A stretch of 64,000 nt of DNA from an uncultured bacterium. Its GTDB lineage: Bacteria > Verrucomicrobiota > Kiritimatiellia > RFP12 > UBA1067. The notes under the pieces were generated by a model that did not search any database, had not been told where the DNA came from, and saw only the letters and a program-made list of their open reading frames with translations. Location: contig CACZCD010000001.1 of assembly GCA_902779565.1 (NCBI GenBank), positions 3,929 to 67,928 of the forward strand, in the 5' to 3' direction. Made by a program: the position numbers and the translations under genes. Below are positions 4,625 to 36,700 of the stretch, piece after piece; within the stretch, counting starts at the first letter, position 1, and each line of letters starts with the position of its first letter.

Positions 4625-4782
4625 GTGGTTGATTTGTCTCACGCAGAGGCGCAGAGGACGCAGAGAGAAATTTCGGAGTTGTGACTCCGCTCAAAAAATA
4701 ACATGGATTCCACCTTTCCACTTTTCCACCTTTCCACCATTCCACCTTTCCACTTTTCCACCTTTCAACCTTTCAACTTTTG
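4625..4782. repeat. Tandem-repeat hairpin element copy 1: CA-rich arm (4625-4655) and purine arm (4708-4782) around a spacer carrying GCAGAGG x3 and a small hairpin
   Basis: Plus-strand arms: gttggtagttgatagttggtggttg ... ccacctttccacttttccacctttccaccattccacctttccacttttccacctttcaacctttcaac. The arms are imperfectly complementary (GTTGAWAG units pair with CTTTCMAC units). Confidence 0.8.
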
Positions 4783-7150: not shown

Positions 7151-7359
7151 GCCTTTTTCTGGAATTTCGCGTAGCGCTTCTTGAACGAGTCAACGCGGCC
7201 TTCCGTGTCAACCATCGTCTTCTGCCCCGTGAAGTAGGGGTGGCACGCGGAGCAGGTGTTCACCTGCATCTCCTTCTTGGTGGAACGCGTCTTGATGACA
7301 TTGCCGCACGCGCACGTAATCGTCGCGTCTTCGTAGGTAGGATGGATTCCTTCTTTCAT
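7147..7359 (-). CDS. rpmE: 50S ribosomal protein L31
   Basis: MKEGIHPTYEDATITCACGNVIKTRS...CSACHPYFTGQ, with a zinc-ribbon CxxC...CxxC, 70 aa. Start chosen at MKEG (7359). Confidence 0.85.
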   Translation of the reverse strand: MKEGIHPTYEDATITCACGNVIKTRSTKKEMQVNTCSACHPYFTGQKTMVDTEGRVDSFKKRYAKFQKKA

Positions 7360-7436
7360 CTTTCTTCTCTGCCTTTCAAAAAAGTGTGCGTATGATACCA
7401 TTTTGCCGCCCTCCGCGCAAGAGGGTGCGCGGGAAA

Positions 7437-7660
7437 GGCGCTTGTGCTTGTGTTTGTTGCCAGTCCGTGGCCGCGTCCGTTGTAGCCCGTTGCCTGTCCG
7501 TTAGGCGTCCGTATTAGCCCGTGTGAAGTCCGTAATCTGCCTGAAGCCTGTCCATGATATGTCCGTGGGTAGTCCGTGGTGTGTCCGTCTATGGGAGGGC
7601 GAGTGTCCTCGTGAAACGCCTCAAGTCCGTAATGCGTCCTTCTCGTATCCGTGTGAAGAA
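7437..7660 (+). repeat. Array R1: about 17 copies of GTCCGT (variants GCCCGT, GTCCTC, ATCCGT) phased at 10-12 bp (mean ~11 bp). It is an inverted copy of block B of R2.
   Basis: ccagtccgtgg ccgcgtccgtt gtagcccgttg cctgtccgtta ggcgtccgtat ... The first ~60 bp (ggcgcttgtgcttgtgtttgttgccagtccgtggccgcgtccgtt) is the near-exact reverse complement of 23225-23285. Confidence 0.85.
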
Positions 7661-7765
7661 ATGCGAAAAGGCGGGCGGCCCGAAGACCGCCCGCCGCCAC
7701 GGAGGGTGCGCGCGTCCACGAATGCAATCCGCTACGCAATCGCGCGCCTCCGTCTTTCTCCGCCC

Positions 7766-8833
7766 TTATATCGAGACGACAGTCACCGTCACCGGCGAAG
7801 AGGTGTGATCCGCACCGCCGCTGTGGCGCGTCACCGTGACCGAAACCTCGGAATTGTCCAGTACATCGTCGAGTCCGGTGGGCCACTCGGACTTCAAGTA
7901 CACATCGGTCATCTCGTGTACGCTTCCCCAGACCTCCGCACCGTCCTCGCGGGTGAATTTCACCGACAACTCTGAGCCGTCATACCCGAAGTTGCGCCCA
8001 GAGATCATGACTTCCTCTCCCTTGATGAGCTGCCCCGGTATGGCACCCGCAGCCGTAGAGACGATTGAGGTCACCACCGGTGTCAGATCCGGTCCGGGCG
8101 GGATCGCCGCCGCCTTGACCGTGACCTTGTGCAGAGCCGTGACGAGCGGAGCCGTGGGGTCGAGACCGTGCGAGACGAGCCGCACGTAGTATGTCCCCGC
8201 CGATACCGCCGAGGCGAGCGTGCAGATGATCCGCTGGCCGTCCTCGGTGGAGACCACCGTGATGTCTGCGACCTTGGTCAGTCCGTCCGCCGCAACGAGC
8301 GCAAGGGATTCGTCCTCGCCGTCCGGCACCGTGAGATCGATGCCCGCAATGCGGAACTCCTTCAGTCCGTCGATCAGGCGGTAGGTCTCGGACGCGAGAT
8401 CCATGACAGAACTGATCTTCACGTTGCCGTTCACCGCTTCCACCCCGAGGCTTGTCGGTGCTATGCCGGACACCGCATCGCGGATGTCCTGTGAGAGCGT
8501 CGCGCCGATGTAGAGCGTGTTGCGCGGGGCGCGGAACTCGTCGTCCTCGCTGTCGAACGCCCCGCCAATCATCGGATAGAGCGACACCGCGCCCATGTTG
8601 ATGCGTACGACATCGTCCGCGATCTTCTCGGCGGCAAACTCATAGAACGCGTTCAGGAAGTACTGCGCCGTAGCGCGGGTCATGAACGTGCCCCTGTCGA
8701 GCATCCGCTGGAGGATGTTGTCGTAGGCGAGCGAGCCAATCGGAACGGCCACGCCAAGATACGGAGCCTTCGCCGCCGTCGAAGTGCCGTTACGCACGAG
8801 ACGGTAGCCGACTTTCATTGTCTTCGTTGACAT
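7766..8833 (-). CDS. HU-like DNA-binding domain protein of the Bacteroidetes type (HU fold N-terminus + Ig-like/DUF4469-type C-terminal extension), paralog A
   Basis: 355 aa. It is paralogous to the next gene (RINMGAVSLYPMIGGAFDSEDDEFRAPRNTLYIGATL vs RINLGQLTTGFAIRGAFMSEDEAFDPERHQLIATIRTL). The N-terminal pattern resembles Bacteroides histone-like proteins. Confidence 0.5.
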   Translation of the reverse strand: MSTKTMKVGYRLVRNGTSTAAKAPYLGVAVPIGSLAYDNILQRMLDRGTFMTRATAQYFLNAFYEFAAEKIADDVVRINMGAVSLYPMIGGAFDSEDDEFRAPRNTLYIGATLSQDIRDAVSGIAPTSLGVEAVNGNVKISSVMDLASETYRLIDGLKEFRIAGIDLTVPDGEDESLALVAADGLTKVADITVVSTEDGQRIICTLASAVSAGTYYVRLVSHGLDPTAPLVTALHKVTVKAAAIPPGPDLTPVVTSIVSTAAGAIPGQLIKGEEVMISGRNFGYDGSELSVKFTREDGAEVWGSVHEMTDVYLKSEWPTGLDDVLDNSEVSVTVTRHSGGADHTSSPVTVTVVSI

Positions 8834-8850
8834 GATGTTTATCCTTTCTT

Positions 8851-9558
8851 TTATTCCGCCTTCACGACAATGTTCTTCACCTTTGCCGTTGCGGGCTTCA
8901 GCGATTCGCGCATCCCGTTGCGGCAGCTCACGACAAGCGTGTACGTGCCGGGTTCAGGCGGCTCCGCGAAGACGCAGTCGATGGTCTGGCTATCGCTCCG
9001 CTCCACTGTCGCCGTGGCGACGATGTCGCCCGTCTTGGCGTTGACGAGCCACACGCCCTCGTCCGGGTTGTCCGGCGAGATGCCGAGTTTCTGACCCTGA
9101 ATGAGCACGCGATTCGTGCCGGTGATCTCGGAAACGCGCTTCGTGACGGCGTCCATCACGGCGGCGACCGTACAGGTGAGACCGAGCGTGACGTTCTCCG
9201 GCAGCACCGCCGACATCGCACTCTTGAGCGGATCGAGCGTGCGTATCGTCGCGATGAGCTGGTGCCGTTCCGGATCGAACGCCTCATCCTCGCTCATGAA
9301 CGCGCCGCGTATCGCGAAGCCCGTGGTGAGCTGTCCGAGGTTAATGCGGTAGCCCGCAATCAGCTGAGTCATGATCTCCTCCGAGAGCGCGTCGAGGAAG
9401 TACTTCCACAGCGATGCGTCCTGCTTGGTGCGCTCCGCAAGACGCTCCGCGAGTTCATCGCGCCCGATCGTGCCGTTCGTCTGAACGTGGGCTGTATAGA
9501 CCACGCGATCCGTGATTGCGTCAGGAACACGCGTCAGGGAGAATACGATATTGTCCAT
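8851..9558 (-). CDS. HU-like DNA-binding domain protein of the Bacteroidetes type, paralog B
   Basis: 235 aa. TNGTIGRDELAERLAERT matches the ...TGTIDxDELAEEIAE... helix of Bacteroidetes HU-like proteins, and the C-terminal region is beta-rich. Confidence 0.55.
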   Translation of the reverse strand: MDNIVFSLTRVPDAITDRVVYTAHVQTNGTIGRDELAERLAERTKQDASLWKYFLDALSEEIMTQLIAGYRINLGQLTTGFAIRGAFMSEDEAFDPERHQLIATIRTLDPLKSAMSAVLPENVTLGLTCTVAAVMDAVTKRVSEITGTNRVLIQGQKLGISPDNPDEGVWLVNAKTGDIVATATVERSDSQTIDCVFAEPPEPGTYTLVVSCRNGMRESLKPATAKVKNIVVKAE

Positions 9559-9571
9559 TGCATTCCCCCTT

Positions 9572-9763
9572 TCACTTGTTCACCTGAATGCCGAACGGCA
9601 CGCCAAGCCCCACAACCCCGATTGTGTGTGCGGAGTCCGCCGGAGTCGTGACGGCGGTGCATCCCGCAAGCGCCGCACCTGCGACGCCCGCAACGGCCGC
9701 AACTGCGGCCCGTACCGCCTCCTTCAGGAAGGCGATCAGCTTGTTCTTCAGCTTGCTTTTCAT
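9572..9763 (-). CDS. Small lipoprotein (64 aa) with signal peptide and lipobox LAGC
   Basis: MKSKLKNKLIAFLKEAVRAAVAAVAGVAGAALAGCTAV.... The ORF-track start at 9952 is probably over-extended. Confidence 0.4.
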   Translation of the reverse strand: MKSKLKNKLIAFLKEAVRAAVAAVAGVAGAALAGCTAVTTPADSAHTIGVVGLGVPFGIQVNK

Positions 9764-9876
9764 TGACTGTTTTCCTTTGTCTGCATTGAACGGCGGCGAG
9801 CGCATGGCCACGCGGACATGTACGTCCTCCGCCACCATGCATTGGCGTCGGGGATGCGTCCGGGTTCGGAAAATCT

Positions 9877-10374
9877 TCAGAAACCTTCCGCCGCCCACAA
9901 CGCCTTGAACCGCGAAATGAATCCCGGCAGAACATGACGCCGGAACGTCCACATGGCGATGCCGATCTCCGCCGCGACCTTCTTCCAGTTCAGCAGCTTC
10001 ATGTAAAGTTCGGCAATCCGGCGATCCTCCGGCGAAAGCCGAGCGACGGTGTGGCGCACCGCAAGGCGGTCACGCTCCCGGACACGCTGACGCGACGACA
10101 TGGCGTACATGTCCCGCACGGCCTCAACGGCAGGCTCTCCACACCGCATCTGCCACGGAATGAGGGACCGAAAATTGCGCCGCCCTTCGTTCTGCGCCTC
10201 GTTCAAAGCCAAGGAAAGCGCAGCCTTCCGACCGCGCTCCCCTTTATCCTTATTATAGTGCAACCTCCGCAGTATCATGTTCTCGACATCCGATTCGTCG
10301 AGTCCATACGGACGATGCTCACGCACATAGCGCCTCGACCAATGCCGAGCGAAGTCGATTGATTTCCGGTCCAT
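9877..10374 (-). CDS. Sigma-70 region-4-like / LuxR-type HTH DNA-binding regulator
   Basis: C-terminal SPEDRRIAELYMKLLNWKKVAAEIGIAMWTFRRH is a region-4-type HTH. It is 165 aa with no clear region 2. Confidence 0.45.
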   Translation of the reverse strand: MDRKSIDFARHWSRRYVREHRPYGLDESDVENMILRRLHYNKDKGERGRKAALSLALNEAQNEGRRNFRSLIPWQMRCGEPAVEAVRDMYAMSSRQRVRERDRLAVRHTVARLSPEDRRIAELYMKLLNWKKVAAEIGIAMWTFRRHVLPGFISRFKALWAAEGF

Positions 10375-10479
10375 GCCAATGTCCTTTTTCTGGTGGAGGT
10401 CCGGCCCATTCCAGACACTCCCAAGACATTGGCATCGACTTCGCCATCAGGTTCGGTTTCAACGAAAACAATTCAAAAA

Positions 10480-10625
10480 ACTTAGCAGGGTGCGACACCC
10501 GGACATCGCACCCTGCAATCACCAAACTCCGCAAGGTGCGACACGGACACTTCGCACCCTGCGACTCTCTCTTGTTGCACCCTGCAACATCGCGCTATCG
10601 CACCTTGCCACTTTCGCCCGTCATA
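10480..10625. promoter_or_regulatory. Iteron-like operator array: two good and two degenerate ~46-bp direct repeats, each with an internal dyad GGTGCGA-N10-TCGCACC
   Basis: GCAGGGTGCGAcacccggacaTCGCACCCTGC, then caaGGTGCGAcacggacactTCGCACCCTGCGAC, then gcaccctgcaac...tcgcacc and ccctgcgac. It sits upstream of the sigma-like gene in a 430-bp noncoding gap. Confidence 0.4.
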
Positions 10626-10803
10626 CCCTGCGACTCAAAAAACCTCTTTTAGGGCACCCAAACCACCGCCCCCGCATCATCGCGCCGCCCCTCCGCTCAT
10701 GCATTGAAGGCCCCTGTTCTCCACCGTTTTAACAAAGGAGGGCCGCCACCGACATTGGCCTGCCTTCCGAATTCATTGGTGCAATAGCTTGTTCATTCAT
10801 AGT

Positions 10804-11634
10804 TTACATCTTTGGCATCGTGTCCTTCATGCCAAGCGCAAGATACTTGGAGCGCGCATAGTCGTAGTACTTGAGATCGACTATGGAATTCTCTGGAATG
10901 CCGATCGAGGCAAGGTAGCGGTGACGTGCAGTGGTGTCCACGCCATCGGTGCAGCCGGGCACAACAAGGCAGCGAACCTCCATCTTCGCCTTCGCCGCGA
11001 CCAGCCGCTCAAGATTCTTCCTGACGATCTTGTTTGAAACTCCCGTGTACTTCATGTGCAACGTATCGTCCTCGGCCTTGTAGTCTGGGAGCCACAGGTC
11101 CGTGACGGGCAGCATCGCGTCAATCGCAGCGGGTGGCGCGTAGAGCGATGTGTCAAGGCATGTATGAAGTCCGGCGGCCTTGAATGCCTTGAACAGCTCC
11201 GCCGCCCATTCCCAGAAGAACAGCGGTTCGCCGCCGGAGAGCGTCACGCCACCGCCCGACTCGTCGTAGAACGCCTTGTCCTCAAGAGCCTTCGCGACGA
11301 TCTCGGGAATCGTCATCGGCTTGCCGTAGAGCTTGAGCGCCCGCGTCGGACACGTTGCCTCGTCCATCGTGCAATGCTCGTGGTGCTTGCACAGGTGCTG
11401 GAACCGCGCCCACTGCGCCTCAGACTTTATCGATTCGGGGTTGTGGCACCAGATGCACTTCAAGGGGCACCCCTTCACGAAGAAGGTCGTGCGGATGCCC
11501 GGCCCGTCCCAGATCGCCATCCGTTTAGTGTCGAGCATCAGCGGCGCCTTAACGGCACGCCCGGCTGCGGACAGCATTGGGCTTACGGCAAACGCTGTCG
11601 AAGATACGATGAAACTCTTGCGCGTTACAGTCAT
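10804..11634 (-). CDS. Glycyl-radical enzyme activating enzyme (radical SAM)
   Basis: WDGPGIRTTFFVKGCPLKCIWCHNPES (CX3CX2C radical-SAM cluster in the GRE-AE context), plus a second Cys cluster CKHHEHC...C. The true start is probably an internal Met (e.g. 11538). Confidence 0.75.
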   Translation of the reverse strand: MTVTRKSFIVSSTAFAVSPMLSAAGRAVKAPLMLDTKRMAIWDGPGIRTTFFVKGCPLKCIWCHNPESIKSEAQWARFQHLCKHHEHCTMDEATCPTRALKLYGKPMTIPEIVAKALEDKAFYDESGGGVTLSGGEPLFFWEWAAELFKAFKAAGLHTCLDTSLYAPPAAIDAMLPVTDLWLPDYKAEDDTLHMKYTGVSNKIVRKNLERLVAAKAKMEVRCLVVPGCTDGVDTTARHRYLASIGIPENSIVDLKYYDYARSKYLALGMKDTMPKM

Positions 11635-17820: not shown

Positions 17821-20229
17821 TCACCATCCCTTCATCACGTTTTCTGCACGGCGGATGTAGGCATCCTGTTCGGCCTTGCACATATCATTCCACCGCACGT
17901 TCCATCCGCAAATACGAACCTGTAGATTCTCGTATTTTTCGGGGTGCGCCTGGGCATCACGGAGCATCTCTGCACTGAACACGGTGAACTGGATCACGCC
18001 GCCACCGTTTCGGTGGAACATCTGAACGAGCGCACGCATGGCCGCCAGCCCCTTTTCACCCTGAACGACTGACGGATGAAGTAATACGTCAAGCGGATAG
18101 TCGCTTGGTAGCTTCTCCGCCGAAGAAGAAGCCAGGGTCGCAACGAGCGCCGTGGCACCCTCTGTATCGGCTCCCATCGTAGGAGAAAGGTTCTTCGAGA
18201 GTTCATCGCCCTTTTTGCGTCCGTCAGGTGACGCGGGCGTCTTCTTCCCGAGCTCAATGAAGCGCCGCGAGGAATGCCCGCTCGCCAGAAAGATCCCGCC
18301 ACGAGAATTGGGGATGCCATTCAGGTTGGAAGCGAATACATCGATTATCTCTGCGCCCAATGCGTTGGACTCCGGGTCGTTGTTGCCCCACTTCCGCTTT
18401 GAGCGTAGCATCCTCAGGCGCAGCGCCTCATGTCCTTCCCAATCTGATGCCATGATTTCGCCAAGTACGGCCAGCGACTTTTCACGCTTTTCATAGACAA
18501 TCTCCTTCACGGCCAGCAACGCATCCACCGAACTGCCAAGGCCTAACGCGCGCAGCGTGGTATCATTGCCGCGCGGGCACCCCGTTGCAAATCCATCCTG
18601 ACGGGTCTTCAGGGCGTAATCGGTCGCCAACGTCATGCAGATGGCGGGGTTGACCTCAGATAGGGCCTTTTCAATCTCGTACACGATCTTGCGGCTCCTT
18701 GTCGTGTTTTGGGCGACCCGTTTCATGTACTCCGACCGAAACACCTCGAATGTACCCCAATCGGCTGAAGGCGCGCCCTTCCGCGCCTCGTCCAGCATTT
18801 GCACCACAGGGAAGAGCAAGTTCAGGTTCACGGTGTCTGTCGTGTTCAGGCTGTCCGCCAAGCCAAATTCATAGCACCCGCGCACGGCCATGGTACGGCA
18901 GTCTTCGTCGCTTGCGTTTTTCCACCGCTTGAGTACCTTTGAAGCCGACTCCTCGCCAAGGAACGCCACGGAACGCCGCCGCCGCGCCATGTCGAGCAGT
19001 TTCGCCCACGCCCAATCCGGCGTGTTTCCGCCCACCTTCACGATGAACTTGGGTGAGGTGAGGTTGAGCTCATCGACGACATCAAGAATGATGCGCGAGA
19101 CCTCCCCGAATTCGCTGGAACCATCCTGTTTCGTGCCGCCCAGGCCCGCGGGCTGTGCATAGTAGTTCGCGGCGGAACCCCACTGCCAGAGGAAGTGCTT
19201 GATCTGCTCGCGGAATTCCGCCTCGGTCGTGCGCCCCACCGCAATGTCGGAAACATAGTAGGGCGCAAGGAACACATCCAGCTCCGTGAGTGAACGGCAC
19301 TGGATGCCATCGAGGTGTTCCGACCAGAAGAAATAAAGCCACACAAACATCAACATGTCGTAGGCCGTCTGCGGCGGGCCGTTCCGCAGACGCTCCAGAC
19401 AAGCAATTTCCTTTTTAAGACGATCCTTACCATTTGCAATTTTGATTCTTGAACAATTGAGGCAATTGTCATTTGTGAACAATTGCAGTTGTTTCCTCCC
19501 CTGTTCGACAAAACGATCTATTCCGACGAGCATTGCATCCATCGCGATGCGGCATGACTCGCAGAACGGATCGTCTTTCACAGCATACTTCTCCAGACGC
19601 GCCTTCATACCCGGGAATCCGAGCGCGAGGATTACGCGCCAGTCGGGAACGGAATGGTCGAAATCCCGCCACATGAGCCAACGTCCTTCGGCATTGCCGT
19701 CATGCCACTCTTTCCAGGCCCAACTCGGAAGCGTCCTGTTCACTTCGCCATGCCGATGCTTGCCAGCAGAACGGATGGGGCGATTCCAGCGATCCCACAC
19801 GGCTATTGCCGGGAACCAGTCGAAGGGCGACACATCTATAGATTGCCGCTCGATCTGGGCGGCAAAGCATTTCGCCTTCGTGACGCGCCAAGACTCATTT
19901 GCCGACTTGCCCTTGGCGACGATCACTGCCAATAGTTCCTTAAGGGCATCCGTGCCCAATCCCGTCGTCCTGTCAGTAACATCCTGACGGAATTTTCGGC
20001 GCAGATACGTGTCCATATCCGTGATGTTCGCGACATATGGATCCCACCAAGTGATGTCTTCGACACATCTACGCTTTGGCACGACTACTTCATCCCCAAC
20101 CGTGGATGGGGCGGCAACGCCCATCGACAGGACCGCCGCACAGACTGCCGATAGCAGATGCCGTATAAGACACTTGTCTTTCATTGCTCCTCCCATCACT
20201 TCTTCACCACAGGATTGGAACCAGCCCAC
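17821..20229 (-). CDS. Glycyl radical enzyme (PFL-like, dehydratase/lyase GCxE subclass), substrate unknown
   Basis: The C-terminal glycyl-radical domain ...MLRDAQAHPEKYENLQVRICGWNVRWNDMCKAEQDAYIRRAEN aligns with the GRE consensus ...LLDAQKHPEKY..L.VRVSGYSA.F..L....QDDII.R. An internal MAVRGCYEFG fits the GC[VLM]E thiyl-radical loop, and 802 aa is typical. The N-terminal ~70 aa (hydrophobic, signal-like) are probably not part of the mature enzyme; an alternative start is MDTYLRRKF. Confidence 0.75.
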   Translation of the reverse strand: MGWFQSCGEEVMGGAMKDKCLIRHLLSAVCAAVLSMGVAAPSTVGDEVVVPKRRCVEDITWWDPYVANITDMDTYLRRKFRQDVTDRTTGLGTDALKELLAVIVAKGKSANESWRVTKAKCFAAQIERQSIDVSPFDWFPAIAVWDRWNRPIRSAGKHRHGEVNRTLPSWAWKEWHDGNAEGRWLMWRDFDHSVPDWRVILALGFPGMKARLEKYAVKDDPFCESCRIAMDAMLVGIDRFVEQGRKQLQLFTNDNCLNCSRIKIANGKDRLKKEIACLERLRNGPPQTAYDMLMFVWLYFFWSEHLDGIQCRSLTELDVFLAPYYVSDIAVGRTTEAEFREQIKHFLWQWGSAANYYAQPAGLGGTKQDGSSEFGEVSRIILDVVDELNLTSPKFIVKVGGNTPDWAWAKLLDMARRRRSVAFLGEESASKVLKRWKNASDEDCRTMAVRGCYEFGLADSLNTTDTVNLNLLFPVVQMLDEARKGAPSADWGTFEVFRSEYMKRVAQNTTRSRKIVYEIEKALSEVNPAICMTLATDYALKTRQDGFATGCPRGNDTTLRALGLGSSVDALLAVKEIVYEKREKSLAVLGEIMASDWEGHEALRLRMLRSKRKWGNNDPESNALGAEIIDVFASNLNGIPNSRGGIFLASGHSSRRFIELGKKTPASPDGRKKGDELSKNLSPTMGADTEGATALVATLASSSAEKLPSDYPLDVLLHPSVVQGEKGLAAMRALVQMFHRNGGGVIQFTVFSAEMLRDAQAHPEKYENLQVRICGWNVRWNDMCKAEQDAYIRRAENVMKGW

Positions 20230-20511: not shown

Positions 20512-21585
20512 TCAGACTTTCAACTCCGATCCTGAGTCGCCGTCTCGTATGTATTTTACGCTACGCCCCTCTCCAACCTTGCGGACAGCACCGTTCTTGA
20601 CAAGCGAGCCAAGCACGGCTTCAACGGTCGTGGGGCTTACGTCTGGCAATGCACGGCAGATGTCGACCTTTGAGATAGGCGTCAGCGCATTGAGGACGAT
20701 GCTTTTGATCCGGGCCGACTTCGTTACGCGGCCCGTGCTCACTACGGCAAAGCGCCGGTCTAGTTCCTCGTAGCATCCATAAAGCGTCATCAGAAAATTG
20801 ACCATGAACGGGAACGGGCTGTTTTCGTTTGTCTGCCATCCTGCCGACGAATCGCGAAGTGCCGCATAATAGGCGGCCTTGTCTGCGTTGATGCGCTGCT
20901 CGAATGAAATGTACTTGCCGGCGTCGAAACCGTTCCTGTAGAGAAGCAGCAGCGTCAGCAGACGGCTCATGCGTCCGTTGCCGTCGGGGAACGGATGGAT
21001 GCAAAGGAAGTCAAGTATCACGCAAGGAATCAACAGCATCTTGTTTATCTCGACGTCGTCACGGGCCTCCATGTATGCGAGGACAAGCTGCTTCATCGCC
21101 TCCGGCGTCTCCTCCGCGCTTGCAGGGGAAAATCGCACCACGCGCCGGCCGTCTGACATGCGCTCGGCAATCACGTTATCCTCATGCTTGTATCCTGGCT
21201 CCACATCTGACGCCACATAGCGGAGCAGCATTCCGTAGAATCCAATGATGTCTGATTCGGTGAAGTCATGTAGCCGGTAGTTCAGGTGGATTTCGTTCAG
21301 GGCATCACGATAGCCGGAAATCTCCGCTTCAGTATGGTTCATGGGGGATGTCCCCTCCTGCATCAGCTCGGCAAGTCGAGCATCGGTGGTGACAATCCCT
21401 TCAATCGCGTTCGATGCCTTGACGGACTCGATCTTCGCTATGCGCTCCAGCTCCGAATATGCGTGCATAAACCTAACTTTGCGTTCAGCCGACAGCACAC
21501 GAAGAGCTGCGATGCTGCTCGTCAAGTTCACCAGTTTTGCCGGCAGCAAGTCGTTTTTCAGGTACGAATAGTCAAAGATGTGCAT
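20512..21585 (-). CDS. Fic/DOC family protein (AMPylator-type)
   Basis: Canonical Fic motif HPFPDGNGRMSRLLTLLLL. Start chosen at MHIFDYSYL (21585), preceded by AAGGAG. It lies in locally AT-rich DNA. Confidence 0.85.
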   Translation of the reverse strand: MHIFDYSYLKNDLLPAKLVNLTSSIAALRVLSAERKVRFMHAYSELERIAKIESVKASNAIEGIVTTDARLAELMQEGTSPMNHTEAEISGYRDALNEIHLNYRLHDFTESDIIGFYGMLLRYVASDVEPGYKHEDNVIAERMSDGRRVVRFSPASAEETPEAMKQLVLAYMEARDDVEINKMLLIPCVILDFLCIHPFPDGNGRMSRLLTLLLLYRNGFDAGKYISFEQRINADKAAYYAALRDSSAGWQTNENSPFPFMVNFLMTLYGCYEELDRRFAVVSTGRVTKSARIKSIVLNALTPISKVDICRALPDVSPTTVEAVLGSLVKNGAVRKVGEGRSVKYIRDGDSGSELKV

Positions 21586-21710
21586 AGTTTCTCCTTTTGT
21601 GAATAATATTATACCACCTTTTATGCACAAAAACAACAGCTCATGCATAAACATCTTATCTTTAATATGCAGATATGATGCTATACACGGGGAAACACAT
21701 AATTGACCTC

Positions 21711-21792: not shown

Positions 21793-22584
21793 ATGACACT
21801 ACGCGAAAGGAAGAAACTGCAACGCGACTTCTTTGAAGCCGCCGGCCCGAACACGGCCGCGTTCCGTGCACTGATTGATACGATTCCCGATGCGTGCTTC
21901 TACATGAAGGACTTGAACTGCCGCATCATGGCGCTCAACAAACGCAACTGCGAAGTGTGCAACATCAAAAACGAGCTGGATGTGGTGGGGATGCGTTCGG
22001 ACGAAGTTTTCACCCCTGCCGACGCCGAAAGCTTCATGGAACTCGACCTCGAAGTGCAAAGAACCAGAAAGCCAGCACTGAATCGCGTCGAAACGCATCC
22101 TGCCGACAAGTCACCAGGATTCACAATCGCCAGCGTCTATCCGGTCAAGAACAGATTTGGCGACATAATCGGCACCATGCGCCTGTACAGGGTATTCACG
22201 TCACACGACAATATGCCCGAATGGCATGGGCGGATGAAAGCCGTGGTAGCCTACATACAGGAACACTATGCGGAAGAAATCTCCCTTGATGAGCTGGCCA
22301 AGCTGACGGGCAGCTCGGTAAGCCAGTTCAAGCGCATCTTCACGAAGACGCTTGAGATGTCGCCCGGAAGATATATCGTCAACACCCGGATCAACGCCGC
22401 CCGCAAGCTACTGGAGACCACAGACAAGCTCGTCTCTGACATCGCGCAGGAAGTCGGCTTCTATGACCAAAGTCACATGACGCGGGCGTTCAAGACGATT
22501 CGCAGCACCACGCCCGGCGAATACCGCCGCAAGCACCGCTCCATTACGGCCAACAACTCATCCGCACCCAAACGCAAATCCTAA
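21793..22584 (+). CDS. AraC family transcriptional regulator with N-terminal PAS-like sensor domain
   Basis: C-terminal ...YIQEHYAEEISLDELAKLTGSSVSQFKRIFTKTLEMSPGRYIVNTRINAARKLLETTDKLVSDIAQEVGFYDQSHMTRAFK is a canonical AraC dual HTH. Confidence 0.8.
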   Translation: MTLRERKKLQRDFFEAAGPNTAAFRALIDTIPDACFYMKDLNCRIMALNKRNCEVCNIKNELDVVGMRSDEVFTPADAESFMELDLEVQRTRKPALNRVETHPADKSPGFTIASVYPVKNRFGDIIGTMRLYRVFTSHDNMPEWHGRMKAVVAYIQEHYAEEISLDELAKLTGSSVSQFKRIFTKTLEMSPGRYIVNTRINAARKLLETTDKLVSDIAQEVGFYDQSHMTRAFKTIRSTTPGEYRRKHRSITANNSSAPKRKS

Positions 22585-22611
22585 CCGCCCCACCCAATCC
22601 CCCACAGCCTT

Positions 22612-22735
22612 CCAACGGACAGAACACGGACAAGTTACGGACTTGCGACGGACAGCCGCTCCGCACACATAAACGGACTCGGGACGGACTGAAAACGGAC
22701 AGGCGCTCGCAGGGCGACCGCCCTGCCTCGGACAA
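22612..22735 (+). repeat. Array R2 block A: about 9 copies of ACGGAC phased at ~11 bp
   Basis: caacggacaga acacggacaag ttacggacttg cgacggacagc ... aaacggactcg ggacggactga aaacggacagg. Confidence 0.8.
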
Positions 22736-22936
22736 TCAGCCAGCGAAACCACACAATCCCCAACCACCCTCAACCGTCGCCCCGCACCCCGCGACCACTG
22801 CGTGGCTCGGCCTTCGACCTCGAATGATATCCCTGCGCAATCCCCCGCAGTTCCTCCAATCCACCACTCCTCCAATCACCCAATCCTCACACCCCACCCA
22901 CTCCACACCCGCAGAGCCAGCCTTGAACACCCTAAA

Positions 22937-23004: not shown

Positions 23005-23290
23005 GAAGACATCCAACGGGCTTCTGACGGACACACCACGGACAGGTTACGGTCTTGCCAAGGACATCTGACGGACGGCACACGGACACACTACGGACAA
23101 GTTACGGACTGGCCACGGACGCGCAACAGACTTCATACGGGCTTAGAACGGACGAGCCACGGACAAAATACGGGCGGAACACGGACTAAAACGGACTTCT
23201 GATGGACAGCATACGGACGGATCACGGGCTACAAACGGACGCGGCCACGGACTGGCAACAAACACAAGCACAAGCGCCTTTCCCGCGGCG
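23005..23290 (+). repeat. Array R2 block B: about 22 copies of ACGGAC (variants ACGGGC, ATGGAC) phased at ~11 bp. The terminal ~60 bp is the inverted duplicate of the R1 start.
   Basis: ctgacggacac accacggacag gttacggtctt ... ctacggacaag ttacggactgg ccacggacgcg ... aaacggacgcggccacggactggcaacaaacacaagcacaagcgcc. Confidence 0.85.
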
Positions 23291-23308
23291 GGGATGTGTG
23301 CGCGCATT

Positions 23309-23758
23309 TTACGGCAGGGCGGCACCCACGAGACGCGAGGCCAGCTTACCGTCGGCCTGACCCTTGACGCGGGCCATGACCTCTTTCATCACGCGACCCA
23401 TATCCTTCTTGGACGTTGCGCCCAGTTCGGCCACCGTCGCCTTGACCACGGCGGCGACCTCGTCCTCGGAAAGCTGCGCAGGAAGGTACTGGCGCAGGAA
23501 CTCCAGCTCCGCCTTCTCCCCCTCCGCCAGGTCGGCACGTCCGGCCGCCGCGAACTGCGCAATCGACTCCTCGCGCTGCTTCACGCCCTTTGCCACCACG
23601 GAGAGGACGGCATCGTCCGTCATCTCCTTGCCGGCGTTCACCGTGAGATCCTTCGCCTTGGCCACCACACCGCGGATCGCGTTGACGGCCTTCATGTCAT
23701 GGGCCTTCATCGCGGTCTTCATGTCCGCCATCAGTTTATCGTAAAGTGCACTTGCCAT
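23309..23758 (-). CDS. GatB/YqeY domain-containing protein
   Basis: 149 aa, MASALYDKLMADMKTAMKAHDMKAVNAIRGVVAKAKDL...ELEFLRQYLPAQLSEDE, a typical YqeY family sequence. Confidence 0.7.
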   Translation of the reverse strand: MASALYDKLMADMKTAMKAHDMKAVNAIRGVVAKAKDLTVNAGKEMTDDAVLSVVAKGVKQREESIAQFAAAGRADLAEGEKAELEFLRQYLPAQLSEDEVAAVVKATVAELGATSKKDMGRVMKEVMARVKGQADGKLASRLVGAALP

Positions 23759-23786
23759 CTTTTGTCCTCCTTTTGAACGGCCGCGC

Positions 23787-33297: not shown

Positions 33298-33660
33298 CTA
33301 CCAGGAGCGGTAATAGACCGGCGGAGGCGGCGGGGGCGGCGGCGCCACCACAACCGGGGCCGGGGAATAGACCGGGGTGCTATAGACCGGCGTGCTATAG
33401 ACCGGTGTGCTATAAACCGGCGTGCTATAGACTGGCGCAGGCGCCACGACAACTGGCGGACGAACGATGCTGTTCACGATCGCCGCAGTGCCGAGAGCGG
33501 CTCCCGCAATGCCCCATCCGCAATGGTGGTGATGATGATGGTAGCCATGGCCACCATGGAACCTAGGACCGCCATGGAACCCACCATGGAACCCCGGACG
33601 GGCGAACATCACACCTGCCGTTGCCACGACTGCCAGCATTACTATCAGTTTCTTGTTCAT
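33298..33660 (-). CDS. Small secreted His-rich / Pro-rich repeat protein
   Basis: Signal peptide, then FHGGFHGGPRFHGGHGYHHHHHHC, a hydrophobic segment, 5x STPVY tandem repeats, and PPPPPPPP. Confidence 0.5.
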   Translation of the reverse strand: MNKKLIVMLAVVATAGVMFARPGFHGGFHGGPRFHGGHGYHHHHHHCGWGIAGAALGTAAIVNSIVRPPVVVAPAPVYSTPVYSTPVYSTPVYSTPVYSPAPVVVAPPPPPPPPVYYRSW

Positions 33661-33792: not shown

Positions 33793-36700
33793 TTAGGGCT
33801 TTACGCGCACGGTTTCAGCGGTTGAGTGTGCCGTGAACTCGGGCGCGTACATGCATTGGATCGTCGCAAGCCCGCCGATAAACACGCCGCGCTGCTGCAC
33901 GCGATACGACGTCTCAAGAACGAACACGCCCTTGTTGAGACAGTCGATGTAGTAGTGCGTGGCCGTATCCTTCGTGGACTGATAATAACCCACGCCATCG
34001 CGCCAGCGGTACGACGACAGCACATCCTCCGGCTCCGCGCACGCAGGCCGCTCGTCAGAGAGATGCACGAACTCGTACGTGCGGTCGCTCGTGATCTCAA
34101 GCCGCGCCACGATCTCGTCGCCCGGCTCAAGCACGCCATCGATCGACGTGAGCCGTGTCCCATCCGCGCCCTTCACCTTCTTGTAGTACTTCTTCTCCAC
34201 CCGCAACTCCTTCGGCTCGTGCGCGCGTACCTTAAGGACATCCTCAAAGTACGTCCAGTGGACGCCGCCCCACGCAACGCCCTTCTCGCCCGCACCCGTA
34301 AACGTGATCTCGCCCATCTCGGGCCTGATCTGCGCCGCGGCGTAGCGGTGCGAATACATCCCCGTGCCCGCCTCGGCGTTCGCCACCGGCACCTTCTCGC
34401 CCGCCAGCGTGACCTCGGCCAGCTTGTCGCCCGCCAGCAGATCCGTCCCGCCGCCCAGAAGGAGCGCATAGATCGCGTCCACCGTCGCGGCGGTCGTCGT
34501 CCAATCCTGCGTCTGCTTCTGCTTCAGGAGCCACACGTTGCAGGCATCTGCGCTCTCCTCGTCGCGCGTCACCTCGCGGAACGCCTCAATGATCAGCGCC
34601 TGCGTCGAGACGGGCGCGGCGAACACGCTGCACGAGAAGAAGGACGACCTCTTCCAGTATAGGCCGAGTTCCTCTGAAAGGACGCCCCGCTCCTTGATCG
34701 ACGCCATGATCTTCCGCGCGAACTTTTCCTCGCCCATGCGCTTCAAGGCGATGGCCGCCAGCGCCTGCGAGCTGAGGCCGAAGTCCGTCCACTCCTCCTT
34801 GAGATGCTTGACGAAGAGCTTTGCCGGCTGCGCATCCTTCGCGGCGGCGACGCCCTTGAACGTATGGAGGTAGAGCCAGCGAATGTCGAAGCCATCCACA
34901 TGGAACTTGATGCCCAGTCTCTTCGCCTCCTTGAGCCGCTCCTTCACATCCTCAGAAACGAACGCGTCAAGTGCTTCCACCGCCTCCGCAAAGAAGTCGG
35001 GATACGTCCTCTGCGCCAGGAAGTTGAGCCGCGCGAACCCCGTCAGGATATAGAGCGAGATGCCGGGCGCGGACGGCCCGCCCGGGAACCACGGCCAGAG
35101 TCCGCCGCCACACCGCGCGAGTCGCAACTTCTCAAGGCACTTTTCCTGCTCACCCGCCAGACGGTCGGCGGCGAAGAGTTCACCAAGCCGCGCGCGGGCT
35201 GCGCTTTCGTGCGCCGCCTCACGGACCCACGGCGTCGCTTCAAGCGCAATCGCCTTGAGGTGTTCATCCGTCTCAAGCGGGCTCTTCAGCGTTTCGCCGC
35301 CCGCCGCCTTCCACGCGTCGAACGTGGCGCGGATGCGCGGATCGGCGTTTGCGATGTACTGTCCCAGCGCGTTCGCATAGTAGCGGCTGAACGTCTGCTC
35401 GCAGCATTCGTGCGGGAACTCCATCAGGTACGGAAGCGACAACACCGCGTACCACGCCGGACGCGACACGGCGCGCACCGTGAGATCCTGATGGCGGACC
35501 GTCTCAGACCCCTTGCTCGCCAGCAGGTTCTCGAACCGAAACGATTTCGTCGCCGCGCCACGCACGTTGAGCTGCACGGCCTCGCGCACCATCACGCGGC
35601 GCGCCAGCACCGGCAGCACGCCCTCTTCGCCGTCCGCGAACGCCGCGCCCTTCGCGCGCGCGACATATTTGAGATAGCCGCACCCATCCGGGATCCGCAA
35701 CGGGAACTCGAACGTCTTCGATTCGTGCGGAACCAGGTTGAAAGGTTGAAAGGTTGAAGCGTTGAAAGGTTGAAGCGTTGACGGGTTGGCATTTTCAGCA
35801 GAACTTTTCAACTCTTCAACCTTCAACTCTACAACTCCCTGCTGCGGCGCGTCCTCGGTGTTCGTCACCTTGACGGCAAAGAAGAAGTTGTCACCTTCGC
35901 GCACGAAACGCGGTGCGTTCGGTTCGCACATGAGCGGCTTCGTCGTCACGATCTCGTTGTTGCGGAAGATGTCGCCGCGAAGCGCGTTGTCATGCGCGAC
36001 CATCAGGAACTTCCAGCCCGTGAGCGCGTCCGGCACCGTGAACGAGAACGACACCTTCCCGTCCGCATCCGTCTCCAGGTTCGGGAAGAAGAACGCCGTC
36101 TCCTTCAGGTTCGTGCGCGGCGGCGCATCCGGTTCCTTCTCGGACTTCGCGGATGGTGCAGCACCACACACCGCCACCGTTTCTTCTTCCAAGACGCACC
36201 TTTCATTCATCACGCCCATCCCGGCCGCGGCGGACTTGCAGACCATGCCGCCCCGTCTTCGCAGTCTGCCATACTCGTACAGCGACCGCCACGAAGGCCA
36301 TCGGAAGTTGGAGAACCACGTGGACTTGCTTGGGAACCGACCGCCGAGATCCATCAGCTCCGTGGTCGTATTCTGGATTGCCGGACTTCCGAGCCAGCGC
36401 GTCCAGGGCGTAAAGTGACTTGAAAAACCGAGCGACACATCATGCCATTTGTACGCATCGAGCGAACGGTCGTACATGAAAGCGAGCACTTCCGCAGGGC
36501 CCGACACCTTGAACGTCCATATTTCCTTGTTGCCGGGATTGAGCTTGCTCGTCAGGTGCTCCGCCGTGATATCCAGATACTTGTTGTCCCACGGCACATT
36601 CACGCAGGTGCTGTCGCAATAGATGCGGTTCTCGCGCACGAAGGTGGTCTCAATCCTCACTTCGCCGCGATGCTCCTCCTGGATCGGCAGCTCGAAAAAC

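What the first reader, a model, noticed from the sequence alone, without database searches (positions are those of the whole stretch)
7766..10374. Module of two Bacteroidetes-type HU-like paralogs, a lipoprotein and an HTH regulator inside the high-GC island
The 355-aa and 235-aa proteins share clear paralogy and carry the N-terminal pattern of Bacteroidetes HU/DUF4469-type histone-like proteins (...TNGTIGRDELAERLAERT... and ...GAFMSEDEAFDPER...). That family is common in Bacteroides conjugative and mobilisable elements and is functionally uncharacterised. Finding it duplicated next to phased DNA arrays and iterons raises the possibility that these proteins are the array-binding factors.
Basis: inference. 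Interest (0 to 1): 0.5.

Follow-up and report, generated by a model that had tools for sequence, protein, structure and literature searches.

The report
HU-fold/Ig paralog operon in rumen Kiritimatiellae
A real four-gene operon in an uncultured rumen bacterium encodes two acidic proteins built on the fold of the DNA-packaging protein HU, and they look unfit to bind the nearby DNA repeats, while one of them ends in a domain that differs almost completely between strains.

Summary
The genes are real. Four minus-strand ORFs at 7766-10374 encode a basic sigma-like helix-turn-helix (HTH) protein (165 aa), a tiny lipoprotein (63-88 aa) and two paralogs of 235 and 355 aa. I call them HTH165, HU235 and HU355. 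Both paralogs pass the Pfam cut-off for HU-DNA_bdg. The HU235 model (pLDDT 95.7) matches PDB 4FMR, which typifies the Ig-fused HU-HIG clade.

The interpretation mostly fails.
- There is no high-GC island: the module's GC is 0.614, equal to the window mean.
- The host is a rumen Kiritimatiellae genome, not Bacteroides, and no phage or conjugative context was found.
- Both paralogs are acidic (pI 5.0 and 4.7) with acidic "arms".
- The 11-bp-phased GTCCGT arrays also lie 15 kb away and are missing beside orthologous modules.
- The seven 23-bp-spaced palindromes upstream change together with HTH165, not with the HU paralogs. They may also be RNA leader hairpins.

New points:
- The lipoprotein and HU-Ig paralog linkage holds across lineages, usually with a sigma-like regulator.
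- All four genes are under purifying selection.
- The last ~115 residues of HU355 are polymorphic, with at least 15 unrelated types behind an 86%-identical N-terminal body.

Best reading: a non-DNA-binding HU-fold scaffold carrying a variable Ig recognition tip. Its function is unknown. It is a new variant of a known kind, of moderate interest.

The parts
9877..10374 (-). HTH165: basic (pI 10.7) all-helical orphan protein with a sigma-70 region-4-like C-terminal HTH. First gene of the operon and the candidate regulator.
   Evidence: ORF. pI. TIGR02937 E=0.002, below cut-off. AF2 pLDDT 83, eight helices. Foldseek list dominated by ECF sigma factors but E>=0.2. Only 57 homologues, all in this lineage, none with a Pfam hit. 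dN/dS 0.20.
9572..9763 (-). Tiny lipoprotein. The precursor is 63 aa from MKSKLKNK (88 aa if started at 9838), with lipobox LAGC. The mature peptide is about 29 aa: CTAVTTPADSAHTIGVVGLGVPFGIQVNK.
   Evidence: Sequence inspection. Conserved in L001, L002, L009, L011 and L013. A second subtype with the same Cys-proximal core occurs in L008, L012 and L023. dN/dS about 0.25. No family hit.
8851..9558 (-). HU235: HU-HIG-type HU-fold domain (about residues 1-125) plus a DUF4469 Ig-like domain (about 130-235). Acidic, pI 5.0.
   Evidence: Pfam PF14848 43.3 bits, PF14734 29.6 bits, PF18291 28.5 bits, all above cut-off. Family profile against PDB 4FMR, E=3.5e-16. AF2 pLDDT 95.7. Foldseek 4FMR E=6e-14, then classical HUs at TM 0.72-0.78. 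dN/dS 0.12-0.14.
8108..8833 (-). HU355 conserved body: HU-fold domain (residues about 11-125) plus a first Ig-like (DUF4469-like) domain, ending at the conserved VTVKAA boundary (about residue 242).
   Evidence: PF14848 49 bits. Paralogy to HU235, E=8e-16. 77-99% identical across loci. Nucleotide identity to L002 (97%) stops at window 8088. dN/dS 0.16-0.25.
7766..8107 (-). HU355 polymorphic C-terminal domain: a Pro-rich linker plus an acidic beta-rich TIG/Ig-like domain of about 100 aa.
   Evidence: Weak PF01833 TIG hit, E=0.004. Unalignable between loci whose N-terminal parts are >=98% identical. Among 68 homologues, 84% of C-terminal pairs have no BLASTP hit; >=15 unrelated types against one N-terminal cluster; median pI 4.06.
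10483..10633 (.). They are a candidate operator array and/or stems of a structured leader RNA.
   Evidence: Sites start at 10483, 10506, 10529, 10552, 10575, 10598 and 10621. Conserved in L002, L009, L019, L020 (8 sites) and L021. Replaced by CAATCCGATTG-type palindromes in L011 and L013, where HTH165 is about 51% identical. GC/GU/AU-compatible variation between sites 2 or 4 and site 5.
10475..10516 (-). Terminator-like hairpin formed by the last two iterons (14-bp stem) followed by a T-run, about 100 nt upstream of the HTH165 start codon.
   Evidence: Terminator scan. Invariant in six loci.
10369..10439 (-). 5'-UTR hairpin whose 3' arm covers the ribosome-binding region and the ATG of HTH165.
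   Evidence: Inverted repeat I7, 15 nt, 93% complementary. Invariant in group A loci and retained with a compensated inner stem in L011.
7655..7695 (-). GC-rich hairpin (GGCGGGCGG-TCTTCGG-CCGCCCGCC) plus a T-rich tail: the probable terminator of the operon.
   Evidence: Read from the sequence. Conserved after HU355 in L002, L005 and L009. The consensus scan did not call it because the T-run is interrupted.
7452..7652 (+). GTCCGT array with 11-bp phasing, between the operon terminator and the rpmE promoter. It is adjacent to the module but probably not part of it.
   Evidence: 40 phased pairs in the window against 8.4 expected. Two sister arrays at 22604-22700 and 23016-23263. Present after the module only in loci with 100%-identical HU235.

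Best explanation
The locus is a self-contained four-gene operon, with its own leader and terminator, found in rumen Kiritimatiellae.

Shown:
- HU235 and HU355 are paralogs of the Ig-fused HU-HIG clade.
- Both are acidic and lack basic arms.
- The lipoprotein gene and both HU-Ig genes stay together across lineages, even where gene order is shuffled. A sigma-like or other small helical regulator gene is usually but not always next to them.
- All four genes are under purifying selection.
- The distal Ig-like domain of HU355 is replaced wholesale between strains.

Inferred:
- The two paralogs dimerise through their HU-fold cores, homo- or heterodimerically as HU alpha/beta and IHF alpha/beta do. 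The result is a non-DNA-binding scaffold.
- The Ig domains of that scaffold bind a protein or other non-DNA ligand. The polymorphic HU355 tip sets the specificity.
- This fits the published proposal that Ig-fused HU-HIG proteins recognise variable non-self molecules.
- Expression is controlled in cis by the basic sigma-like HTH165 acting on the seven phased palindromes, and/or by the hairpins these repeats form in the leader RNA, together with a start-codon-sequestering 5'-UTR hairpin.
- The tiny lipoprotein is the membrane-side partner or output of the system. Its role is unknown.
- The GTCCGT arrays are a separate, generic intergenic feature of this genome.
For: - Family and fold.
- Acidity and acidic arm substitutes.
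- Ig occlusion of the DNA cleft in homologue 4FMR, and the non-self recognition proposal: PMC5499826.
- Cassette conservation with varying flanks.
- Linkage of lipoprotein, two or three HU-Ig paralogs and an HTH or sigma-like gene in relatives at 47-59% identity, with shuffled gene order.
- Purifying selection.
- Polymorphic C-terminal domain.
- Iteron phasing, and the switch of motif together with HTH165 type.
- Hairpins and terminator.
- Arrays unlinked to the module.
Against: - No partner, ligand or phenotype is known for any member of the family, so the recognition role rests on analogy.
- Heterodimerisation was not modelled.
- Occlusion of the cleft by the Ig domain is taken from 4FMR, not measured on this model. 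The monomer pTM is 0.62, so the inter-domain geometry is uncertain.
- Neither paralog has a signal peptide, which leaves the functional link to a lipoprotein unexplained.
- There is no recognisable effector domain and no PADLOC hit.
- The sigma/HTH assignment of HTH165 is below every curated threshold.
- In the four loci with 100%-identical HU235, the GTCCGT array does follow the module in at least two genomic contexts. Some local relationship therefore cannot be excluded.
Confidence: 0.45

Rival explanations
1. The two HU-like paralogs are architectural DNA-binding proteins that bind the phased GTCCGT arrays and/or the iterons flanking their genes.
For: - The HU fold is confirmed.
- An 11-bp-phased array lies directly downstream of the module in the window and in L002, L003 and L005. 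That covers at least two genomic contexts and three different HU355 C-termini.
- Phased sites are what a DNA-bending protein might use.
Against: - Both proteins are acidic, and so are the arm replacements.
- The profile match to classical HU stops before the arms.
- The Ig domain occupies the DNA cleft in 4FMR (PMC5499826).
- Two of the three arrays in the window are 15 kb away, next to unrelated genes.
- Modules with 85-92% identical HU235 (L008, L009, L011, L012) have no GTCCGT array.
- Arrays occur in unrelated metagenomes with no HU module in the DNA held.
- The iteron motif changes while HU235 stays at 86-92% identity.
Confidence: 0.1
2. The 'iterons' are not protein operators. They are the stems of a structured leader RNA, that is an insulating terminator or an attenuator, which together with the start-codon hairpin controls read-through and translation of the operon. 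HTH165 would then act elsewhere.
For: - The last two sites form a 14-bp hairpin followed by a T-run.
- Sites 2 or 4 against site 5 vary as G-C, G-U and A-U with no incompatible combination in six loci.
- The L011 and L013 leader has a different sequence but again forms a long nested hairpin plus a small hairpin with a U-rich tail.
- Folding z-scores are -5.9 and -6.0.
- The 5'-UTR hairpin is conserved with compensatory changes.
Against: - Exact 23-bp spacing and variable copy number (8 sites in L020) are typical of DNA repeats bound by protein.
- Each site is itself a 5-3-5 palindrome, as expected for a dimeric HTH protein.
- Only one pair shows double-sided covariation, the six sequences are related, and the covariation term is only -1.07 kcal/mol.
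- The transcription start is unknown, so the repeats may not be transcribed with the operon.
- This reading and the operator reading are not mutually exclusive.
Confidence: 0.35
3. The cassette is cargo of a mobile element (a prophage or integrative-element 'moron'), for example a superinfection-exclusion or host-range module. The polymorphic Ig tip and small lipoprotein would act like phage receptor-binding and exclusion proteins.
For: - The identical HU235, within about 97% nucleotide identity over roughly 2.5 kb, is found in different flanks. One of them abuts a large serine recombinase, DUF2924 and PD-(D/E)XK element.
- Other copies lie next to restriction-modification and GmrSD genes, or carry an inserted ATPase gene.
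- C-terminal cassette replacement resembles tail-fibre evolution.
- Most contigs carrying the module are short, as expected for repeated or variable DNA.
Against: - No match in IMG/VR, INPHARED phages, PLSDB plasmids or PHROGs above noise.
- BFVD holds only a 167-aa HU-domain protein, with no HU+Ig protein.
- The window has no integrase, transposase or terminal repeats around the cassette.
- In several species the module sits next to rpmE-prfA.
- GC equals the genome background.
- The HU-Ig proteins have no signal peptides or virion-protein similarity.
Confidence: 0.12
4. It is an ECF-sigma-type envelope-signalling operon. HTH165 is a minimal, divergent ECF sigma factor, the small membrane or lipoprotein is its signalling partner, and the HU-Ig genes are simply its regulated output.
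For: - NCBIfam sigma70-ECF E=0.002.
- Structural neighbours are almost all ECF sigma factors, and region 4 superposes at rmsd 2.4 Å.
- The order sigma gene, small membrane-protein gene, output genes is the usual ECF layout.
- A 258-aa protein with a faint Sigma70_r2 hit precedes the HU pair in L022.
Against: - Every sigma score is far below its cut-off (17.6 against 42.9 bits).
- hhalign between HTH165 and the L022 protein is not significant.
- The cytoplasmic part of the lipoprotein precursor is about 12 residues, too short for an anti-sigma domain.
- Palindromic repeated sites suit a dimeric regulator, not a sigma factor.
- L008 and L012 keep the lipoprotein and HU pair without HTH165.
Confidence: 0.15

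Closest known systems
HU-HIG clade, Ig-fused subclade (Pfam PF14848 HU-DNA_bdg + PF14734 DUF4469; PDB 4FMR, BVU_2165 of Bacteroides vulgatus; Burroughs et al. 2017, PMC5499826)
   Same: - Same two-domain architecture: a modified HU fold with an extra N-terminal beta-hairpin, followed by an Ig-like domain.
- Pfam scores are above cut-off. The family profile hits 4FMR at E=3.5e-16 and the model hits it at E=6e-14.
- Occurrence as adjacent paralog pairs was already noted for the clade.
- No function has been established experimentally.
   Different: - Found in Kiritimatiellae (PVC group), not in Bacteroidetes or spirochaetes.
- Embedded in a conserved operon with a lipoprotein and, in most loci, a sigma-like regulator. 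The clade was described as almost entirely lacking conserved operonic linkage.
- Under strong purifying selection (dN/dS 0.12-0.17) rather than diverging rapidly throughout.
- One paralog carries a third, polymorphic Ig-like domain.
Classical HU/IHF nucleoid proteins (PF00216)
   Same: The alpha-helical dimerisation body and core fold are shared (profile hits to HU at E down to 3e-6; Foldseek TM 0.72-0.78). A pair of adjacent paralogs recalls the IHF alpha/beta and HU alpha/beta heterodimers.
   Different: - No basic beta-ribbon arms. The equivalent loop is acidic.
- Whole-protein pI is 4.7-5.0 against about 9.5 or higher for classical HU and IHF (from general knowledge of these proteins; not computed here).
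- The proteins are 2.5-4 times longer and carry Ig domains.
- PF00216 scores below cut-off (14 bits against 22.4).
Proteins with a conserved body and a swapped C-terminal specificity domain (phage tail fibres and receptor-binding proteins; polymorphic toxins; sensor domains of some anti-phage proteins)
   Same: A conserved N-terminal body and a sharp boundary motif (VTVKAA plus a Pro-rich linker), followed by unrelated C-terminal domains of about 115 aa among otherwise >=90% identical proteins.
   Different: - No secretion signal, no downstream immunity gene and no toxin domain.
- No virion genes nearby and no PADLOC match.
- All the variable domains look Ig/TIG-like and acidic.
Autoregulated operons with phased operator repeats, or attenuator leaders
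   Same: Seven regularly spaced palindromes lie immediately upstream of the first gene, which encodes a basic HTH protein. The repeat motif switches together with the HTH protein type. Hairpins and a T-run resemble a terminator or attenuator.
   Different: Binding is untested. The 23-bp spacing is not an integral number of helical turns. The transcription start is unknown.

Membership tests
HU-HIG clade, Ig-fused subclade (PF14848 + PF14734) | HU-DNA_bdg domain above the Pfam gathering score | tested here: met
   HU355 scores 49 bits and HU235 43.3 bits against a cut-off of 30.
HU-HIG clade, Ig-fused subclade (PF14848 + PF14734) | C-terminal DUF4469 Ig-like domain | tested here: met
   HU235 scores 29.6 bits against a cut-off of 22.6. 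HU355 scores 17.9, below cut-off, but aligns to HU235 across this domain. The model shows a beta-sandwich at residues 130-233.
HU-HIG clade, Ig-fused subclade (PF14848 + PF14734) | Structural match to the solved member 4FMR, including the extra N-terminal beta-hairpin | tested here: met
   Foldseek E=6e-14 over 243 columns. The overall TM is only 0.41 because the domain orientation differs. Strands 5-10 and 21-26 precede helix 1. The family profile hits 4FMR at E=3.5e-16.
HU-HIG clade, Ig-fused subclade (PF14848 + PF14734) | Evolutionary behaviour described for the clade: Bacteroidetes expansions, rapid divergence, no conserved operon | tested here: not met
   The host is Kiritimatiellae. dN/dS is 0.12-0.17. 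The lipoprotein/HU-Ig operon, usually with a regulator gene, is conserved. These are descriptive traits of the clade, not fold-defining ones.
Classical HU/IHF DNA-binding proteins (PF00216) | Basic beta-ribbon arms with conserved Arg and Pro residues, and a basic protein | tested here: not met
   The arm-equivalent segments have pI 4.6 and 4.1, and the proteins have pI 5.0 and 4.7. The HU profile alignment ends before the arms. PF00216 scores 14 bits against 22.4.
Classical HU/IHF DNA-binding proteins (PF00216) | Demonstrated DNA binding | not testable with these tools
   Needs EMSA or DAP-seq.
ECF-type sigma-70 factor (for HTH165) | Regions 2 and 4 recognised above curated cut-offs | tested here: not met
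   TIGR02937 scores 17.6 bits against a cut-off of 42.9. There is no Pfam sigma hit.
ECF-type sigma-70 factor (for HTH165) | Two-domain sigma-like fold | tested here: inconclusive
   AF2 pLDDT is 83. Foldseek neighbours are nearly all sigma factors, but with E>=0.2. Region 4 of SigL gives TM 0.66 and rmsd 2.4 Å.
Bacterial lipoprotein | Signal peptide ending in a lipobox [LVI][ASTVI][GAS]C | tested here: met
   The precursor reads MKSKLKNKLIAFLKEAVRAAVAAVAGVAGAALAG|C. The Cys and its lipobox context are conserved in eight loci of two subtypes. This rests on sequence inspection; no dedicated predictor was available.
Iteron or operator array bound by a cognate regulator | Three or more regularly spaced repeats next to the regulator gene, co-varying with it | tested here: met
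   Seven sites at exactly 23 bp. The motif differs in L011 and L013, where HTH165 is about 51% identical. Only one such switch was seen.
Iteron or operator array bound by a cognate regulator | Physical binding | not testable with these tools
   Needs footprinting or EMSA.
Polymorphic toxin / contact-dependent inhibition-type systems | Variable C-terminal toxin domain followed by an immunity gene, plus a secretion route | tested here: not met
   The variable C-terminus is present. But no ORF follows it, only a terminator and the array. There is no signal peptide and no toxin family hit; the only hit is a weak TIG match.
Cargo of a Bacteroides-type conjugative or mobilisable element | Adjacent transfer, mobilisation or integrase genes, or presence on plasmids or phages | tested here: not met
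   Neighbours in the window are rpmE-prfA and a radical-SAM activase with GH28. No phage match and one weak plasmid match. Only L002 and L003 abut a serine-recombinase element.

The most novel reading that the evidence does not exclude
The cassette is a previously undescribed multi-gene system built on the HU fold. An HU235/HU355 dimer uses a strain-specific, swappable Ig tip to recognise a variable partner, for example a protein of an invading element or of a neighbouring cell. It is coupled to a tiny membrane lipoprotein and a private sigma-like regulator. That would make the HU-HIG 'conflict' hypothesis directly testable in a defined operon outside Bacteroidetes.
Probability: 0.25. Interest if true: 0.65.

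Novelty: new variant of a known kind. Interest (0 to 1): 0.4.

Why it matters
HU-HIG and DUF4469 proteins are abundant in gut bacteria, yet none has a defined function. They were reported to lack any informative gene context. Here the Ig-fused form sits in a conserved operon with defined partners: a lipoprotein, a sigma-like regulator and a structured, repeat-bearing leader. It also has a clearly delimited polymorphic domain. That supplies concrete handles for experiments: which proteins interact, what the variable tip binds, and what the regulator recognises.

The work also removes a tempting but unsupported link between 'HU-like' annotation and nearby phased DNA repeats. Those repeats appear to be a separate, genome-wide feature and deserve their own study.

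Tried and rejected
- **High-GC island.** Rejected by the composition profile.
- **Phage or plasmid origin.** IMG/VR scan, tblastn against INPHARED and PLSDB, PHROGs, PADLOC and BFVD gave nothing beyond noise or a lone 167-aa viral HU-domain protein.
- **Single-sequence PDB search.** It found nothing for any of the three larger proteins. Only the family profile reached 4FMR.
- **Genome-collection scan.** The 10-sequence alignment was too diverse. The 5-sequence alignment returned only 8 loci, 7 of them clear relatives from rumen or other ruminant-gut uncultured genomes and one a weak Treponemataceae match.
- **Taxonomy of remote homologues.** The listing of cluster members returned no names.
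- **Homology between HTH165 and the sigma-like protein of L022.** Not significant.
- **Link between GTCCGT arrays and the module.** The metagenome scan for arrays found 120 loci, 20 of them with real arrays, and none with an HU module. Flanks were short and the collection may not hold this organism.
- **Considered and set aside.** Diversity-generating retroelement (no reverse transcriptase or template repeat; whole-domain replacement rather than point variation). Plasmid-partition centromere (no ParA or ParM-type ATPase). Anti-sigma role for the lipoprotein (cytoplasmic part too short).
- **Not tested.** Whether the 64-nt inverted repeat at 7424-7487 and 23224-23287 mediates inversion of the 15.8-kb segment.

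Full report
**1. What is in the sequence**

Window 7766-10374 holds four consecutive minus-strand ORFs. I name them as follows:
- HU355: 7766-8833, 355 aa.
- HU235: 8851-9558, 235 aa.
- A small ORF ending at 9572.
- HTH165: 9877-10374, 165 aa.

The two large proteins are paralogs (BLASTP 29% identity over 220 residues, E=8e-16). Both pass the Pfam gathering score for PF14848 HU-DNA_bdg (49 and 43.3 bits against 30). HU235 also passes PF14734 DUF4469, an Ig-like domain, and PF18291 HU-HIG.

A profile of 71 diverse homologues hits PDB 4FMR (BVU_2165) at E=3.5e-16 across both domains. It hits classical HU proteins only over the helical body. An AlphaFold2 model of HU235 has mean pLDDT 95.7. Its best PDB neighbour is 4FMR (E=6e-14), followed by classical HUs at TM 0.72-0.78 for the N-terminal domain.

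The small ORF encodes a lipoprotein precursor. It has a Lys-rich n-region, an Ala/Val h-region and the lipobox LAGC, leaving a mature peptide of about 29 residues. This was read directly from the sequence, and it is conserved in every orthologous locus.

HTH165 is an orphan. It has 57 homologues, all in this lineage, and none has a Pfam domain. It is basic (pI 10.7) and predicted to be all-helical (pLDDT 83). Its C-terminus reads like sigma-70 region 4. NCBIfam sigma70-ECF gives E=0.002, far below the cut-off. Foldseek neighbours are almost all sigma factors, but none is significant (E>=0.2). 'HTH regulator' is therefore reasonable but not proven.

dN/dS is 0.12-0.25 for all four genes.

**2. 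What is not there**

There is no high-GC island. The module's GC is 0.614, identical to the window mean. The array-flanked segment 7420-23290 has a lower GC (0.584) than its flanks.

The organism is an uncultured rumen Kiritimatiellae, not a Bacteroides. The window is 99.995% identical to a scaffold from a cattle-rumen metagenome. Named homologues are annotated as Kiritimatiellae or 'Verrucomicrobia' metagenome-assembled genomes. A scan of 185,579 species-representative genomes found 8 loci. Seven are clear relatives from rumen or other ruminant-gut uncultured genomes, and one is a weak Treponemataceae match.

No homologue was found in IMG/VR or INPHARED phages. PLSDB plasmids gave one weak hit. 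PHROGs gave only noise and PADLOC nothing. BFVD holds only a 167-aa viral HU-domain protein without the Ig part.

**3. The cassette and its context**

The identical HU235 protein occurs in at least two genomic settings:
- between a radical-SAM activase and rpmE-prfA, as in the window;
- between a GH20-like gene and a large serine recombinase/DUF2924 element.

Nucleotide identity between these two settings is about 97%. It runs only from window 10641, upstream of the iterons, to 8088, inside HU355.

Other species place the module next to other genes:
- a restriction-modification/GmrSD island;
- a metallophosphatase gene and rpmE;
- fhs-cpaB-cpaF;
- a fucosidase gene.

The flanks are therefore not conserved, while the cassette is.

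The core is lipoprotein + HU235 + HU355. HTH165 is present in most loci, but another small gene takes its place in L008 and L012.

The linkage extends to much more distant relatives:
- At 59% identity, a 258-aa protein with a faint Sigma70_r2 hit precedes an HU236/HU351 pair.
- At 47% identity, three HU-Ig paralogs (267, 235 and 335 aa) are followed by a 92-aa lipoprotein. It belongs to the same family as the L008/L012 lipoprotein, so the gene order is shuffled.

This conserved linkage contrasts with the published description of the clade as almost entirely lacking operonic associations (PMC5499826).

**4. A polymorphic third domain**

HU355 residues 1 to about 242 (HU fold plus first Ig domain) are 77-99% identical across loci. 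After the motif VTVKAA and a Pro-rich linker, the last 100-130 residues cannot be aligned, even between loci whose N-terminal parts are >=98% identical.

Among 68 full-length homologues:
- The N-terminal parts form one cluster (median 86% identity, minimum 69%).
- 84% of C-terminal pairs have no BLASTP similarity.
- 71% of pairs whose N-terminal parts are >=90% identical still have no C-terminal similarity.
- There are at least 15 unrelated C-terminal types.

All types are acidic (median pI 4.06) and beta-rich, and carry the 'G-x-N-L/F' strand motif of IPT/TIG-like domains. The window's version gives a weak TIG hit. Many contigs end in or just after this region, as expected if strains differ there.

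**5. Are the HU paralogs the array or iteron binders?**

The evidence is against it.

(a) Charge. HU235 and HU355 have pI 5.0 and 4.7. The loop that replaces the Arg-rich HU arms reads SEDEAFDPERH in HU235 and DSEDDEFRAPRN in HU355 (pI 4.6 and 4.1).

(b) The solved homologue. In 4FMR the Ig domain occupies the space that DNA takes in HU/IHF complexes (PMC5499826). I could not verify this on my monomer model, whose pTM is 0.62.

(c) The GTCCGT arrays are real, with an 11-bp period. The window has 40 phased pairs against 8.4 expected. They lie at 7452-7652, 22604-22700 and 23016-23263, so two of the three are 15 kb from the module.

(d) Orthologous modules with 85-92% identical HU235 (L008, L009, L011, L012) have no GTCCGT array. 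Two of them (L008, L009) carry arrays of other short motifs in the same intergenic slot. The window has several other short-period intergenic arrays as well. These repeats therefore look like a general intergenic feature of the lineage. Twenty GTCCGT arrays found in unrelated metagenomes (GC 0.36-0.68) had no HU module in the DNA held.

(e) A caveat. In the four loci with 100%-identical HU235, the array does follow the operon terminator. This holds in at least two contexts and with three different HU355 C-termini, and the first repeats are homologous. A local relationship within this species group is therefore not excluded.

**6. The iterons**

Seven 13-bp palindromes (TCGCA-SSS-TGCGA) start at 10483, 10506, 10529, 10552, 10575, 10598 and 10621, which is exactly every 23 bp.

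The same motif is kept in six loci whose HTH165 is 63-100% identical, and one of these has eight sites. In L011 and L013, HTH165 is only about 51% identical while HU235 remains 86-92%. There the repeats are CAATCCGATTG-type palindromes instead. The repeats therefore track the HTH gene, not the HU genes. Only one such switch was seen, and physical adjacency could also explain it.

A rival reading is RNA structure:
- The last two sites form a 14-bp hairpin followed by a T-run.
- Sites 2 or 4 against site 5 vary as G-C, G-U and A-U without incompatibility.
- The L011 leader also folds into nested hairpins.
- A conserved hairpin covers the ribosome-binding site and the ATG of HTH165.

I regard operator array and structured leader as both plausible, and they are not mutually exclusive.

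**7. Most likely mechanism**

Shown: the fold and family, the acidity, the conserved linkage, the purifying selection and the polymorphic tip.

Inferred:
- HU235 and HU355 dimerise through their HU cores, as HU alpha/beta and IHF alpha/beta do, into a scaffold that does not bind DNA.
- The Ig domains of that scaffold bind a protein or other ligand. The swappable HU355 tip sets the specificity.
- HTH165 and/or the leader control expression.
- The lipoprotein is the membrane-side partner or output.

This follows the proposal by Burroughs et al. that Ig-fused HU-HIG proteins recognise variable non-self molecules. Here, however, diversification is confined to one added domain while the HU core is conserved.

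Several things remain unexplained: why cytoplasmic proteins without signal peptides are tied to a 29-residue lipopeptide, what the ligand is, and whether an effector exists.

**8. Comparison, novelty and score**

By fold and domain architecture the proteins are members of the HU-HIG Ig subclade. They are not classical HU/IHF DNA binders, because the defining basic arms were tested for and not found.

The novelty lies in four points:
- the host phylum;
- the conserved operon;
- the third polymorphic Ig domain;
- the repeat-bearing leader that is coupled to a private regulator.

I rate this a new variant of a known kind, with interest 0.4. It is a useful entry point to an uncharacterised, abundant family, but there is no demonstrated function.

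Noticed in passing
window 7424-7487 and 23224-23287: A 64-nt inverted repeat at 98% identity. Each copy sits at the gene-proximal end of a GTCCGT/ACGGAC 11-bp-phased array and just upstream of a gene start (rpmE at 7359 on the minus strand; ORF 23294-23776 on the plus strand). The pair brackets a 15.8-kb segment that includes the module. It could be a duplicated promoter-upstream element or a site for inversion.
   Followed up: partly
window 7452-7652, 22604-22700, 23016-23263: Three arrays of GTCCGT at an exact 11-bp period (40 phased pairs against 8.4 expected). All lie in intergenic DNA between a terminator and the next promoter. Similar arrays with at least 5 phased pairs occur in 20 unrelated metagenome contigs with GC 0.36-0.68.
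   Followed up: partly
window 4708-4774, 22852-22888, 33367-33437, 35735-35837, 44008-44127; L008:11810-11950; L009:11960-12010: Many intergenic regions of this genome and its relatives carry short-period (7-16 bp) tandem arrays of different motifs, such as TTCCACCT x8, AGGTTGAA, CCTCTTC and GGTTGGAAG. This looks like a lineage-wide feature of unknown function.
   Followed up: no
window 10369-10439: A conserved 5'-UTR hairpin pairs GCCAATGTC with GACATTGGC directly over the ribosome-binding region and the ATG of the HTH165 gene. The inner stem shows compensatory changes in L011 and L013. This suggests translational control.
   Followed up: partly
L002:9873-17479: An integrative element lies directly after the array that follows the module in a second genomic context. 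It carries a large serine recombinase, DUF2924 and a PD-(D/E)XK/DUF3799 exonuclease-like gene.
   Followed up: no
L020:1124-2281: An AAA_14/DUF4143 ATPase gene is inserted on the opposite strand between the HTH and lipoprotein genes of one module. L008 has the module beside an EcoRI-methylase/GmrSD/HNH island, with a fragment of an HTH165-like gene about 7 kb upstream.
   Followed up: no
window 10804-11634 and 17821-20229: The glycyl-radical enzyme (PFL-like) and its radical-SAM activase are separated here by genes for a GH28 protein (1115 aa), an FGE-sulfatase and a 355-aa protein. On a contig whose HU235 is 99% identical to the window's, the two genes are adjacent. A Fic gene (20512-21654) and an AraC/PAS regulator (21793-22584) follow.
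   Followed up: no
L012:2704-3659: The HU355 ortholog in this metagenome-assembled genome is frameshifted after about residue 250. The Ig-like C-terminus continues in another frame. This is either a sequencing error or a pseudogene.
   Followed up: no
L014:1349-7357, L015:161-6352, L022:1-3347: More distant HU235-like genes (about 60% identity) lie next to giant ORFs of about 2,000 aa and, in one case, about 11,940 aa. The first two of these HU genes are solitary, with no HU355 partner.
   Followed up: no
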